Shown one piece after another: positions 1 to 63,000 of a DNA stretch of 64,000 nucleotides. The number at the start of each line of letters is the position of its first letter. Position 1 is the stretch's first letter. Made by a program: the position numbers. Source of the stretch: Carcharhinus amblyrhynchos (lineage: Eukaryota); assembly GCA_965287045.1 (NCBI GenBank), contig OZ336885.1, positions 61,256,001-61,320,000 on the forward strand. The letters run 5' to 3'.

Positions 1-3000
1 CATAAAACGTGCGTAGGGAGAATGTATCTTATTTTGAAATGGACAAACAGTCCCAGTGTTTCACTAAGAACCCCGCGACAGAATACACAACTCCCTTTTT
101 AATATACACTCGAGTTAAAAGATCATTTTTTCATCATTGTTCTTCTTTCCATCGAGAGTACCAAAATAAGATTGCCACAACAGAATCATATTTCTTGTGA
201 ATGATTTTAGTGGATAATAAGCACTTACAGAAATTAGCAGCTTTGGAATTTTATGTACATAAAGATAAATTTCATTCTGCACAGCCAAAATGAGCTGAAA
301 TAATATTGTTGCATAATGCGTGAAAATTGAGCATGCGTTTCAAAAACCACAGTATTTGCAAGTATGAGATAAACAGACGTCGGTTCCGTCTCTTGCCTTT
401 ATCTTTCATTGTGAATATGCTCTCTAAAATAATTAAAATACGCATATATTATCAACAATGTACAACACAAATGGTCTGATTTTTGTATTTGGGATTCTCG
501 CTCTTTTTTTCCATCATCATCATTTAATTGAGAAACTTCAGAATGTAATGACACTGTCTGTGCATTAATCAATCTATCGTCCAGCGTCAGCAGGTTTACT
601 TCACCCGAATATATCATCATTAAGTAAAACAAAAAAAAAATTAAAGCGGATCATCTGGATGAACATGGAGTCAAAGCTGGGGATTTATTTTTAGACGTGC
701 AGCAAACTGAACATGCTTTTCCATAGCTGTCGGATTAAAAGACGGTTAATAGTGTCCTTGCTGTCGACGTTTCGTCTATCAGTTAATCATTAAGACATTC
801 GTTCTGTTGACAGAAGCCCCTGTAATGAATTAGTACAGATTAAAGCAACTGGATAAAAAAAAGAGGATGCGGAAGGGAGATTTCACAAGTCCAATAATAA
901 TAATTAAAAAATGATTTGGAATATTCTGTTTTGCATTCCAACGATTAAAATGCAACCACAATAATGAAGAGCTAGGTAAGCATCTGAAAAATGTTTCATA
1001 AAATAAGTATAAATTAAAGTGACCACACGATGTTCAAATTGCTATCCTATCCATGGGATGATTCGATGTTGCATGTTTTATAGTACAATGACAATCGTAC
1101 TAATCCATCTTTGATCTCTGAGAGAATGTATTCGTGCATATATTAATTGCGCTTAGGCTTCTGAAGAAAATTGCTATGTTTGCCGTTACGGATTGCTCAA
1201 ACTTCTTCCCACACGAACAATTTCAATCGAAATTTCAAAATCCCACGACATTTTGAGATAATTTCAAAAACAGTGTTCACTCCTCGAGTGACCCTGAATT
1301 ATTTTTTGATTTCATTTCATAACTGCTTAATATAAATATGTTTGATCTGTTTAGTGCACACGAAAAACATATAAAAAATCTTCTCCACAAGTGTTATGTC
1401 AAGCTGCTTCATCATCACTAACACACTGTGTAGCCTCAAAAACAATACTGTGTTTTTCATATAACGCACAATTATTCATGGCATGGAGAAGCTAAACATG
1501 TTCAATGCTTCACTTTTTTTTCTATTATCGACTTTTCGTTAAATGGATGTAGAAATGATTTGCAAGTTTATTATTTCTTGCCTATACCTCAATGCAATAA
1601 ATCATGGACGTCACACAATTCTCGAAGTGCCTGCAGCCAACATTGTAGATTCGCCCTTGCCATCCTCTTCTCGAAGTACTTCCTGGATGTTGCCTCAAAA
1701 TGAGCCAAATAACTCTGAAATATTTCAAAGTCAGCAACTTGTGTGGCTGAGATGATAATTTGTGAGTAGGCTACCGCCATAACTATTTCCCATTGCTTTC
1801 GTCCAGATATTATATCCAGCATGTTCGGAAAGCTATGTGGCAGGCTTTTGATTTGTGGTCGTAATTCGGATGGAAGCTGCACTGTACCTTAATGCGGGCA
1901 GTAGTGAATTCAGAAATGATCGAGTGGGATACAGACCGAATTCATTCCATTATCCTGCATGGTATCAAGCTTTATTGCGTGCTGTAGGAAATGTAATGAT
2001 TCAGAAAATTTACAGTGTTGTACAATTCGCAATACCCTTGAAATCTGCCTCGCTGATTATGAACACGTTTTGACAAATCAATAGATGATCTCCTAACCCC
2101 GAAATACCAGCCTTCATATGGCTCAATTATATGGCTCAATTATTTCATGTATTTTTTGTTTGGTCATTATTAGATCTGCGCATATTGACGCTAATGTATT
2201 CACCGAAAGAACCGCAGCTGAAAGAACAGGGAGTTTTTGGTGTTCTGTATTATCGGCGATAATTGCAGCTTGCCACTTAGTTCATGCGAATTTTACTTGA
2301 TACCTGCCGGTACAATATTGAATTTTGTTCGTGATGGATTACATGCTAGGAATGTATGTTTCAGTATCTGAGAGTTCCTGTACATTTTGCAATAGAAGTG
2401 AAGACCGCCACTAAGTGAGTGCTCACGGTGGCAACATTGCATCCTCTGAATATGCAATGGCCTAAAGCACAACACTTAGCTGTTTTTGCACTTATGGCAT
2501 GTCAATATTTAAGATTGATTCACATAATCCCCCACAAAATTGGTTACAGTGGAGAGTTTGTCTGTCCAAATCCTATACACTTCAGTTTTGCTGAAATGCT
2601 ATTTATATATGCAGCATCATTCATTGTTTGCATCTGAACACAACCTGCTACTTTTACAAACTAAAGAACTTGACTTTTCCCAGGAGGACAATGAAATACA
2701 AATGATTCATTCATGTACCTTTTTCTTCAAGATTTTTCTTCAATTGCTGGCATTCTAGGGATCAATATCGTAATTATACAGTTCATTATATCATAACGAA
2801 TGCCATTGTTGGATGGAGATTGCGAAATTCTGCCTAATGCATGTTGAAATGATGAAAGTATGGCGCCCGATATTTGAGTGCATAAGTTGAGAAGCAGATA
2901 AATTTAAATGCTGATAATGACTTCTCCCCCGCTGTGACAAGATATTTAACGGTGAACGTATAATCCTGCCTATTTGAAATAATTATGAACGTTTGGGAGT

Positions 3001-60000: not shown

Positions 60001-63000
60001 TTGTCCACATGTTATTGAGTTGTTTTAAATTGTGGCAGCTATGGTGGATGATCACGGGACATATCATTTCAAGAATTAGAGTGGTGCTTAGCTTAGTCAC
60101 TTTTATGCAAAATTGGCTGAGGGTGCATACCATGACAAAAGGCATTTTTTCGAAAAAAAAGTTAACTGCCCAAAATGATGTTTTTCTTTCTCGAATTAAT
60201 CTAATCTTGTCAGCATAACATGCGTGTCTTCATGTATACTAATCTCAGTGTAAAATCATCTCAATTAGGCTTGAATGATCCATTTTAATAATTTTCAGGA
60301 GTTCAACAGTAATTTTAACTGATCGGGTATCGGTATCCCAGGTGACACAATAACTATGCAGAAATATGGGTTGTCCATGTCATTTCGGCGGGTCTGGACT
60401 CCTATATCCAAGCAACTAAATGATGCAAACAGTATTTTCCTATAATGTATTCATGGATTATCTAGTTTGTTTTTGTTTAATCGTTTAACTTTATTTCGAT
60501 TTAATCTCAGAAATTACCACGATTTGAGCTAAATTCGTCTGCTTGCGATTTTATCTTAAACTTTACGATCACCCGTCCAGATTCATAGAATTCCTACAAC
60601 GCCGAAGGAGATCATTTCGCCAATCGAGTCCTCACCACAATCCAACAAAGTCCCAATTCCCGTCATCCCACATATGTAACCTGAGAATCCCACGACGCTA
60701 GGTTCAATTTAGCATTGACAATCACCCTAATCCGCACATCTTGTGATAACGATGTGGAGATGCCGGTGTTGGTGTGGGCAGAGTAAGAAGTCTGACAACA
60801 CTGTTTTAAAGTCCAGCTGGCTTATTTTGAATCACGAGCTTTTGGAGAGCTGTTCCTTCTTCAATAATGACTATACCACCCGATGAAGGAACAACACTCG
60901 GAAAGCTTGTGATTTCAAATAAGCGGTTTGGAATTTAACCTGCTGGTGTGAGACTTCTCACTTTATCTTAGGTTAAACCAATGGACTTTAGGAAGAAACA
61001 ACAGCACCGAAGGAAATCTACACAGACACGTATGAAATGTGAAAACGCCACACAGTCAATAACCCGAGGCCGGAATTGTACCTGAATCCCTGTTGATGTG
61101 AGGGAGCAGTGGCACCATGCCACCGTACCGCCCCGGAACATAAGCTACCAGGCCGGAGCTATTGTCTAGATTCTATCATTGTCCTTTTTGGTAACATTTC
61201 ACTTTAACAATCTATATTGTCTCTGCAGTCGCAAACTGAATTGTCTATATGAGGTAAACACTATTTAATAGTCTGATAAATTACTTCCTTTCAAAAATGT
61301 GGGCGCCAAACTAAAAAAAACCCTTCAACAACACAAATTCATTTTATGAGTTCTAAAAATGTCAACTGCTTTACATTTGGTTGTCAAGAAATATTTGTCA
61401 AATTGTTACCTTTTCCTTTCGCATCTAACCTCTCCGCTGTTAAGGAATACACGAAAAATTGAATAAAGGAGGGATTTTTGGAAGCATAGATAAGGTTAGG
61501 ATCACTTATATTAAAACAAAAGGCTGATGAAAAACAGGTACGTGGGCCTAAATTGCAGGTGCTGTTCGCGAACGTATATTCACTGAAATCCCACTTTCCA
61601 GATTTTCTTCTGCTTAAAGGCAGGCTACGATTTTGTCCTGCGTAACTACACACCTAACTGGATGTGGGAAGAAATTCTGTTGTTACGTGGTTAAGACAAG
61701 ATTTTGAATACACTGTCAGATAACTAAAAAAGAAACCTGACATTGTAAATATTGTTGCATTGTCCGTGGGCTGCAGTGCACTTCATGCTCTGTCATATCG
61801 TTCTAAGTCTATCTGAATCAGAAAAGTCAAACATGTCACTAAGCCATCTTGCAGTCTTAACTCAGCTGATCAGGCGAGCAGCCACACTCAGAACTTTCTA
61901 TCACATATTAACACATGACACCCCGAATGAATGAACAATGCAATAACCTGCAAAACATGGAAGGGAAACAACGACCCACATTGCCACATTTACATCTAGC
62001 AATTGAGCCAAAACCAATACCCACCTCATTCACTTTCATGCTGAACGAATCTCCAACATTTCTAAATAATTAATTCAGTTATCAAACCTAAACACCTGCC
62101 AACTGTATCAAAAACATAATCGAGAACAATATCATTCACTTATACACCACACCCAGCTTACAAGAAGAGGCACCACCCGTCCTAACCCTCACCCCCCCAC
62201 CTCATACAGCACTTCAAATTCACAACCACCCAGCTAATACACTATCACCTGAAATAACCACCAGTCATTAAGCTGGACACTACTTAAAATGCAGACAATG
62301 AGATCCACTTATCCCGCTTATCCAGCTACATGTTTTTTTTCTCAGTTGCAACAGGCAACCTGACCATTCATTCCCTTGCCAAGGTCCGTCCGCAAACATT
62401 CATCCATTCACCCAGTCATCAAACCAGTAACACTCAATGGCTGTTCCTTTAATTGACCAATCTCAGTTCTTGTCATAAGAAGTCAGGATTTAATGTTATT
62501 TCGCCGTCTTCAATCCACTCAGATGGAGTTCTGCATGGGATGCTATTATATGCATTTCTCTCAGACAAGAATTTGTCGGAGAAAAATGCAAACAATCACG
62601 GAGTCGATGAAACTTAGAAGCTTTAATTTCAATGTTTAGAATTGTCGAACCAATGAGTGTTTAATTGGACAGTTGTGCGAGCGACAGTTGGTTTTATGAC
62701 TTGTTCGGTGAATAATGTTGATTTTGTTGTTTATTTATTCGTGCACAGCCTTACAGTATGAAAGGGTGTATGCAAAAAAAAAATGCTTAAATGGACGACA
62801 CAGTGGACTGCTGCATCGGACTGCCACGATCCCTGGTTCGATTCCGGTCCTGGGCTGTCTGTATGAATTGCATGTTAGTTAGATTGGCCATGCCCAATTG
62901 TCATTTGGTGACCCAGACTTGTACAGCACATCCAAGGTAAATGTTCAAAATTACGGAGACCACACGGAAAGACATTCCTGGGCGTGATATTCTTTGAGAA

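What the first reader, a model, noticed from the sequence alone, without database searches (positions are those of the whole stretch)
397..61436. Fully skippable exon array: potential combinatorial length tuning
Seen: every exon is phase 1-1 and ends in G, A or C, never T, so no combination of skipped exons can frameshift or create a junction stop. Inference: isoforms could differ in rod length. Skipping a 36+27 pair keeps heptad register, while skipping a single exon shifts it and could alter oligomer or partner specificity. This would be a micro-exon-gene-like diversification mechanism in a vertebrate.
Basis: inference. Interest (0 to 1): 0.7.

Follow-up and report, generated by a model that had tools for sequence, protein, structure and literature searches.

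The report
Micro-exon array encoding a heptad rod
A 61-kb stretch of a shark- or ray-like genome carries a string of tiny 27- and 36-base exons that spell a helical rod; any of them could be skipped without breaking the reading frame, but that follows from how such arrays arise and does not show that skipping happens.

Summary
The exon array is real and lies on the minus strand. I defined 14 strong micro-exons (nine of 27 nt, five of 36 nt) between 61436 and 397, plus five probable ones. A fixed filter finds 13 such candidates on the minus strand, 1 on the plus strand and a mean of 1.4 in simulations.

All are multiples of three. Only the phase-1 frame is open in every exon. Last bases are G12/A1/C1/T0, and 0 of 91 possible exon-to-exon junction codons is a stop. 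The last nine exons alternate 27/36 nt and keep one heptad register over 93 residues.

The "skippability" carries no evidence of its own. Equal phase follows from exon duplication, G at the last exon base is the splice consensus, and 9 of 14 exons start with AA or AG, so a T is already excluded for ordinary splicing. Two further candidates that pass the same filter end in T.

No transcript data exist here, so alternative splicing is untested. Tropoelastin is a vertebrate precedent for the same principle. Interest is modest.

The parts
61410..61436 (-). micro-exon, 27 nt, ends G (first of the array)
   Evidence: AG/GT flanks and pyrimidine tract. Passed the splice-only filter. Phase-1 frame open.
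59243..59290 (-). probable exon, 48 nt, ends G
   Evidence: Good acceptor tract. Only the phase-1 frame is open. Not of the 27/36 classes.
58583..58609 (-). probable micro-exon, 27 nt, ends G
   Evidence: Splice-only filter. GTGAGT donor. All three frames open.
57087..57113 (-). probable micro-exon, 27 nt, ends G
   Evidence: Splice-only filter. Weak nhmmer match to the 27-nt profile, E = 1.1.
53638..53664 (-). micro-exon, 27 nt, ends G
52712..52747 (-). micro-exon, 36 nt, ends G
   Evidence: Best splice scores in the window. Passes the filter. Hydrophobic at residues 2, 5, 9 and 12.
49354..49380 (-). micro-exon, 27 nt, ends G
   Evidence: Only the phase-1 frame is open.
48115..48141 (-). micro-exon, 27 nt, ends G
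43730..43756 (-). micro-exon, 27 nt, ends A
   Evidence: GTAAGC donor. Found with the heptad/polar filter, so its selection is partly circular. All three frames open.
29251..29277 (-). possible micro-exon, 27 nt, ends G, in the 21.5-kb gap
   Evidence: Passes the filter. Only the phase-1 frame is open.
22183..22209 (-). micro-exon, 27 nt, ends G; first of the nine alternating 3' exons
19811..19846 (-). micro-exon, 36 nt, ends G
   Evidence: Only the phase-1 frame is open. Passes the filter.
16638..16664 (-). micro-exon, 27 nt, ends G
14381..14416 (-). micro-exon, 36 nt, ends C
   Evidence: Leave-one-out nhmmer finds it at rank 2.
14144..14170 (-). probable micro-exon, 27 nt, ends A
   Evidence: Passes the filter. 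It fills the one missing 27-nt slot, replaces a proline junction codon with Q and T, and is needed for the 13-of-13 register.
6490..6525 (-). micro-exon, 36 nt, ends G
   Evidence: Leave-one-out rank 2.
5121..5147 (-). micro-exon, 27 nt, ends G
   Evidence: GTAAGA donor.
2719..2754 (-). micro-exon, 36 nt, ends G
   Evidence: Only the phase-1 frame is open. Passes the filter. Leave-one-out rank 2.
397..423 (-). micro-exon, 27 nt, ends G, GC donor (alternative: 379-423, 45 nt, GT donor, ends C)
   Evidence: Weakest member; taken from the finding's own bound.
11082..11117 (-). doubtful 36-nt candidate that ends in T
   Evidence: Passes the filter but has a weak acceptor and no charged heptad look. 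If real, it breaks the 'never T' rule.
63175..63201 (-). doubtful 27-nt candidate upstream of the array that ends in T
   Evidence: Passes the filter. Outside the finding's range. If real, it gives stops with 12 of 19 downstream exons.

Best explanation
The window lies inside one large gene of a vertebrate, most likely a cartilaginous fish, read on the minus strand. At least 14 and probably about 19 micro-exons are spread over 61 kb, so about 0.7% of the span is coding. They are 27 or 36 nt long, with one of 48 nt. Every exon starts with the last two bases of a split codon (phase 1-1), which is nearly always GAx, giving Glu or Asp.

The exons encode a Lys/Glu/Leu-rich alpha-helical heptad repeat. 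In the 3' half, nine exons alternate 27/36 nt, so each pair gives 21 residues (three heptads) and the register runs unbroken for 93 residues.

This is what old tandem duplication of a two-exon, 63-nt module leaves behind (inferred). Frame-neutral skippability and the absence of T at exon ends follow from that origin, from the splice consensus and from the need for an open constitutive frame.

By default the exons are spliced together into a rod or stalk segment of a larger protein whose other domains lie outside the window (inferred). Skipping of some exons is plausible but not shown.
For: - Strand-specific excess of 27/36-nt splice-flanked open segments: (13 on minus, 1 on plus, simulated mean 1.43).
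- One common open frame: 14 of 14 against 4 of 14 for each other frame; 19 of 19 against 6 of 19.
- Hydrophobic columns: residues 2, 5 and 9 of the 36-nt exons in 5 of 5 each; residue 4 of the 27-nt exons in 8 of 9.
- Continuous register over the nine 3' exons: one heptad position hydrophobic in 13 of 13, the position three residues on in 7 of 13, the others in 3 of 13 or fewer.
- Junction codons are E or D in 71 of 91 ordered pairs.
- Three of five 36-nt exons are recovered at rank 2 in leave-one-out nhmmer. Flanking introns share no similarity beyond simple repeats, which fits an old duplication with selection on the exons.
- Exons are purine-rich, 0.59-0.81 against a 0.51 background.
- Host: a reverse-transcriptase ORF of an intronic LINE has its best named hits in Hypanus sabinus, Callorhinchus milii and Scyliorhinus torazame at 62-67% identity.
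Against: - There is no transcript or homologue evidence for any exon. The list is ab initio, and parts of it were picked with composition or heptad filters (43730-43756, 14144-14170, 29251-29277).
- The 27-nt exons are not recognisable as relatives at DNA level: none of the 9 ranked better than 13th in leave-one-out searches, and 7 were not found at all.
- The 5' half does not follow the 27/36 alternation and has little heptad character.
- The d-type position is reliably hydrophobic in only one of three heptads per unit, so a canonical coiled coil is not assured.
- Micro-exons with long introns and half-consensus donors (G at +5 in 8 of 14) are the kind of exon that is often alternative (general knowledge).
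Confidence: 0.6

Rival explanations
1. The array is spliced combinatorially. Isoforms differ in rod length, with 63-nt pairs dropped in register, or single exons dropped to shift the register and change partners.
For: - Every skip is frame-neutral and stop-free for the exons defined: 0 of 91 and 0 of 171 junction codons are stops.
- The junction residue stays E or D in most combinations: 71 of 91.
- Exons are very short, introns run from 0.9 to 21.5 kb, and donors are often sub-consensus.
- Precedents exist: tropoelastin (PMC12554196, passages read) and TNNT3 exons 4-8 (PMC2447309, abstract in a search listing only).
Against: - The permissive features are all explained without splicing variation (PMC8895747, passages read).
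- The unbroken 13-of-13 register needs all nine 3' exons.
- The 5' half has no 36+27 pairs to skip.
- The UGC motif tied to regulated neural micro-exons (recalled) is not enriched: 6 of 14 against a 31% background, P = 0.25.
- No transcript data were available.
Confidence: 0.2
2. The similar 36-nt exons form a mutually exclusive set, with one chosen per transcript, rather than an additive rod.
For: The five 36-nt exons have the same length and the same phase, and three of five are detectably related. These are the criteria used to predict such clusters (PMC3228551, title and abstract in a search listing only).
Against: - They are interleaved with 27-nt exons and separated by 2-8 kb or more.
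- A 3n length gives no frame-based enforcement of exclusivity.
- The heptad register is continuous when all are included.
Confidence: 0.03
3. There is no functional gene here. The segments are chance matches or the remains of a decayed gene.
For: No homologue, transcript or Pfam support could be obtained for any exon. One exon-like copy without splice sites and with a stop lies at 11291-11326 (E = 0.53).
Against: - 13 candidates against a chance mean of 1.43 and a maximum of 5 in 200 simulations.
- One shared open frame in 14 of 14.
- 13 of 13 hydrophobic at one heptad position.
- Intact AG/GT (one GC) at all 14 exons.
Confidence: 0.07

Closest known systems
Tropoelastin (ELN) gene architecture
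   Same: It is a vertebrate gene in which all exon borders are phase 1:1, two exon classes alternate, and exons can be removed cassette-like without changing the frame (PMC12554196, passages read).
   Different: Its exons encode hydrophobic and cross-linking domains, not a charged heptad repeat. Alternative splicing is documented there and untested here. No sequence relationship was tested or is suggested.
Schistosome micro-exon genes (MEGs)
   Same: Most of the coding sequence sits in very small symmetrical exons separated by long introns, which allows protein variants by exon skipping (PMC4350168, passages read; PMC10526429, abstract only).
   Different: MEGs are described as restricted to platyhelminths and as secreted products. 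Here the host is a vertebrate, the exons fall into two fixed size classes, and they encode a regular heptad repeat. Splicing variation is not shown.
Fast skeletal troponin T (TNNT3) alternative micro-exons 4-8
   Same: It is a vertebrate run of small exons that are alternatively spliced (PMC2447309, abstract in a search listing only).
   Different: It has five exons in an N-terminal variable region, not a 14-19 exon heptad array. No relationship was tested.
Collagen-type exon arrays (exon lengths in multiples of 9 nt, split glycine codons; recalled)
   Same: The exon lengths of 27 and 36 nt are multiples of 9, and the codons are split at the borders.
   Different: No frame of any of the 14 exons reads Gly-X-Y (three-frame translations).
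Stalks built of 21-residue heptad repeats, one exon per repeat, as recalled for the low-affinity IgE receptor CD23
   Same: A 21-residue (63-nt) periodicity of a helical stalk that is reflected in the exon structure.
   Different: Here the 21 residues are split into 12+9 over two exons. No lectin or membrane exon lies in the window. The likeness is recalled and was not tested; the literature search found nothing useful.

Membership tests
Heptad-repeat (coiled-coil type) alpha-helical rod | Hydrophobic residues at a and d positions with a 7-residue period | tested here: met
   The a-type position is hydrophobic in 13 of 13 over the nine 3' exons. The d-type position is hydrophobic in 7 of 13. 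The other positions are hydrophobic in 3 of 13 or fewer.
Heptad-repeat (coiled-coil type) alpha-helical rod | Register unbroken over many heptads | tested here: inconclusive
   It is unbroken over 93 residues only if 14144-14170 is an exon. The 5' half shows no clear register.
Heptad-repeat (coiled-coil type) alpha-helical rod | Forms an oligomeric coiled coil | not testable with these tools
   Structure prediction would need the joined exons, and that step was left out.
Phase 1:1 cassette architecture (tropoelastin type) | All exon borders in phase 1 | tested here: met
   14 of 14 (and 19 of 19) exons are 3n and open in the phase-1 frame; the other frames are open in 4 of 14 (6 of 19).
Phase 1:1 cassette architecture (tropoelastin type) | Alternating hydrophobic and cross-linking domains | tested here: not met
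   The translations are charged heptad segments.
Phase 1:1 cassette architecture (tropoelastin type) | Documented exon skipping | not testable with these tools
Micro-exon genes (MEG) of schistosomes | Coding region mostly in very small symmetrical exons with long introns | tested here: met
   Exons are 27-48 nt and introns 0.9-21.5 kb. 423 of 61,040 nt are exonic. This holds for the part of the gene in the window only.
Micro-exon genes (MEG) of schistosomes | Platyhelminth-restricted family of secreted products | tested here: not met
   The host is a vertebrate by its LINE relatives. Secretion is not testable.
Regulated neural micro-exons (SRRM4 type; features recalled) | UGC motif just upstream of the acceptor | tested here: not met
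   6 of 14 exons have the motif, against 390 of 1246 (31%) background acceptor-like sites; binomial P = 0.25.
Mutually exclusive exon cluster | Adjacent exons of equal length, phase and related sequence | tested here: not met
   The 36-nt exons have equal length and phase, and three of five are related. They are not adjacent: 27-nt exons lie between them.
Collagen-like triple helix | Gly-X-Y repeat | tested here: not met
   It is absent in all three frames of the 14 exons.
Type II lectin-receptor stalk (CD23-like) or triadin-like lumenal micro-exon array (both recalled leads) | Sequence homology, plus membrane and lectin or KEKE domains in the same gene | not testable with these tools
   Single exons are below the tool minimum. 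The joined search was left out. Flanking exons are outside the window. For triadin, only '41 exons' and 'KEKE region' were read (PMC3363337, passages).

The most novel reading that the evidence does not exclude
The nine alternating 3' exons are used as a ladder. Two-exon, 63-nt steps are included or skipped in a tissue-specific way, giving a series of stalk lengths that all stay in heptad register. Rare single-exon skips break the register. This would be a coiled-coil counterpart of tropoelastin's cassette splicing in a cartilaginous fish.
Probability: 0.12. Interest if true: 0.6.

Novelty: new member of a known kind. Interest (0 to 1): 0.3.

Why it matters
If transcripts showed stepwise, in-register length variants, this would be a clear case of protein length being set by splicing of a modular helical rod in an early-branching vertebrate. 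It would also be a useful system for asking how micro-exons are recognised.

As it stands, the sequence shows an unusual but explicable gene architecture: a heptad rod cut into 9- and 12-residue exons. The property the finding stresses adds no information beyond that architecture.

Tried and rejected
Homology search, exon by exon.
No exon reaches the 20-30 residue minimum of the other protein tools.
- I then looked at stop-to-stop frames around single exons. I sent one contiguous, unchanged stretch once. It failed because the E-value ceiling is 10. I dropped the idea, since a 12-residue match cannot reach E <= 10 in 5.8 billion sequences.
- The gene, its domains and its relatives therefore remain unidentified.

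Finding more exons.
- nhmmer profiles of the exons found no further copies beyond weak hits.
- Leave-one-out searches recovered only three 36-nt exons.
- Flanking introns share no similarity.

Other tests that gave nothing.
- UGC motif enrichment: none.
- Rfam, tRNA and tandem-repeat scans explain nothing about the array.
- Pfam gave only transposon domains for the long ORFs.
- My first splice thresholds were too strict and found one exon.

Literature and method notes.
- A search for 21-residue stalk exons found nothing relevant. Search searches failed on term syntax and were reworded.
- The splice-site weight tables in my scripts are recalled approximations used only for ranking.
- No supplementary files were opened.
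No orthologous locus was examined.
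Full report
**What is there**

The window has no N and 39-40% G+C. A scan for AG...GT-flanked segments of 27 or 36 nt with an open frame showed coiled-coil-like translations only on the minus strand. The finding's bounds fit that strand. 61436 is the first base of the first exon. 397 is the last base of the last exon, which has a GC rather than a GT donor.

I settled on 14 strong exons. Nine are of 27 nt and five of 36 nt. Five more are probable or possible: 59243-59290 (48 nt), 58583-58609, 57087-57113, 29251-29277 and 14144-14170. Introns between the 14 range from 890 to 21,520 nt. Only 423 of 61,040 nt are exonic.

**Is the array more than chance?**

- With a crude splice score and no frame filter, 13 candidates of 27/36 nt lie on the minus strand and 3 on the plus strand. 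The frame that starts at the third exon base (phase 1) is open in 12 of the 13. The other two frames are open in 5 of 13 each.
- Among all lengths from 12 to 199 nt, 27 nt (8 cases) is the commonest candidate length on the minus strand and 36 nt (5 cases) is among the commonest. On the plus strand neither length reaches 4 cases.
- A fixed filter gives 13 on minus and 1 on plus. In 200 first-order Markov simulations the mean was 1.43 and the maximum 5.
- Eight of those 13 are in my strong list. The other five are 63175-63201, 52968-53003, 29251-29277, 14144-14170 and 11082-11117.
- The splice weight tables in these scripts are recalled approximations and served only for ranking.

**The stated properties**

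For the 14 strong exons:
- All lengths are multiples of three.
- The phase-1 frame is open in 14 of 14; each other frame is open in 4 of 14.
- Last bases are G12, A1, C1, T0.
- First two bases are AA5, AG4, AT3, CG1, CT1.
- The junction codon was formed for each of the 91 ordered pairs. None is a stop. The residues are E53, D18, A8, K5, N2, Q2, T1, P1, H1.

For the 19-exon list, last bases are G16/A2/C1, there are 0 stops in 171 pairs, and the phase-1 frame is open in 19 of 19 against 6 of 19 for the other frames.

Two candidates that pass the same filter end in T (11082-11117 and 63175-63201). If real, they would create stops with 2 of 4 and 12 of 19 downstream exons. Both look weaker, but only transcripts can exclude them.

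**What it encodes**

I count the split codon as residue 1.
- The five 36-nt exons are hydrophobic at residues 2, 5 and 9 in 5 of 5 cases each and at residue 12 in 2 of 5. Residues 3, 6, 7, 8 and 10 are never hydrophobic.
- The nine 27-nt exons are hydrophobic at residue 4 in 8 of 9 and at residue 7 in 1 of 9.
- The five 36-nt exons were picked by splice score or charge, not by this pattern.

The last nine exons (22209 down to 397) alternate 27/36 nt if 14144-14170 is included. Bookkeeping by residue offset, with no joined string, shows one heptad position hydrophobic in 13 of 13 cases over 93 residues. The position three residues on is hydrophobic in 7 of 13, and the others in 3 of 13 or fewer.

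Without 14144-14170, the junction between 14381-14416 and 6490-6525 would be a proline codon. I infer that the register would also slip by two residues downstream of that junction, since the 27-nt exon contributes nine residues.

The 5' half (61436 down to 43730) is charged, not alternating, and has little heptad character.

**Origin**

Three of five 36-nt exons are found at rank 2 by a profile built from the other four. None of the nine 27-nt exons ranked better than 13th, and seven were not found at all. Exon flanks of +/-400 nt share only simple repeats.

I infer an old tandem duplication of a two-exon, 63-nt module, with the exons kept by selection and the introns diverged.

**Host**

A reverse-transcriptase ORF (Pfam RVT_1) of an intronic LINE fragment has its best named relatives in Hypanus sabinus, Callorhinchus milii and Scyliorhinus torazame (62-67% identity). 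CR1-type elements of birds and turtles come next. 'Vertebrate' is therefore supported, and a cartilaginous fish is likely. I do not take the window for human.

**Does skippability say anything about splicing?**

No, for three reasons.
- Equal phase and 3n length follow from duplication of a symmetrical module.
- G at the last exon base is part of the splice consensus (PMC8895747, passages read). With a recalled T frequency near 8%, no T in 14 exons has a probability of about 0.3.
- 9 of 14 exons begin with AA or AG, so a T at the preceding exon end would already stop the constitutive frame.

The UGC motif I recall as typical of regulated neural micro-exons is not enriched: 6 of 14 against a 31% background, P = 0.25. 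The unbroken register of the full-inclusion product suggests that this product is selected. In-register skipping of pairs would also be compatible with it.

**Comparison with what is known**

- Tropoelastin genes have all borders in phase 1:1, which permits cassette-like removal, and their alternative splicing is extensive (PMC12554196, passages read). The principle is therefore not new for vertebrates.
- Schistosome MEGs share the tiny symmetrical exons and long introns, but they are platyhelminth secreted products (PMC4350168, passages read; PMC10526429, abstract).
- No frame reads Gly-X-Y, so this is not collagen-like despite exon lengths that are multiples of 9 nt.
- CD23-like stalks and triadin are recalled leads that I could not test. 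For triadin I read only that the gene has 41 exons and a KEKE region (PMC3363337, passages).

**What was left out**

Single exons are too short for every protein tool. The gene's identity, its other domains and any annotated isoforms therefore stay unchecked. No transcript data, no vertebrate genome collection and no supplementary files were available or opened.

**Verdict**

This is a real and tidy micro-exon array encoding a heptad rod. The 'fully skippable' property is true of the exons defined, but it is an expected by-product of the architecture. Combinatorial splicing remains an open, testable idea with a known vertebrate precedent.

Noticed in passing
window 30027-31872, minus strand: A fragment of a CR1-like LINE lies inside the 21.5-kb intron. 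It has a reverse-transcriptase domain (RVT_1, E = 7.5e-24), and its best named relatives are in cartilaginous fishes. [quoted passage not shown] A weak endonuclease-like ORF lies separately near 23163-23465 (E = 0.0033, below the Pfam cut-off).
   Followed up: partly
window 6197-6207, 27391-27401, 34486-34496, 39129-39139, 45928-45938, 46642-46652, 54979-54989, 62835-62845: Eight copies of a tRNA B-box-like 11-mer occur (one mismatch or none), against 0.65 expected. ARAGORN finds no tRNA gene. This looks like tRNA-derived SINE copies scattered in the introns, on both strands.
   Followed up: partly
whole window: The CpG observed/expected ratio is 0.72, and 0.65-0.81 in every 8-kb bin. That is high for what I recall of most vertebrate genomes, although the transposon relatives point to a cartilaginous fish.
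   Followed up: no
window 56571-56647: A perfect (GAA)n microsatellite of 25.7 copies sits in an intron. It is the only tandem repeat reported in the window.
   Followed up: no
window 11291-11326, minus strand: A 36-nt stretch resembles the 36-nt exon profile (E = 0.53). It lacks AG/GT flanks and carries a stop in the exon frame, so it may be a decayed copy of the exon inside the 7.9-kb intron.
   Followed up: no
window 36001-38000 and 30001-32000: Two 2-kb bins have raised G+C (0.48-0.49 against about 0.39 elsewhere). The second also has a strong negative GC skew and coincides with the LINE fragment. The first was not examined.
   Followed up: no
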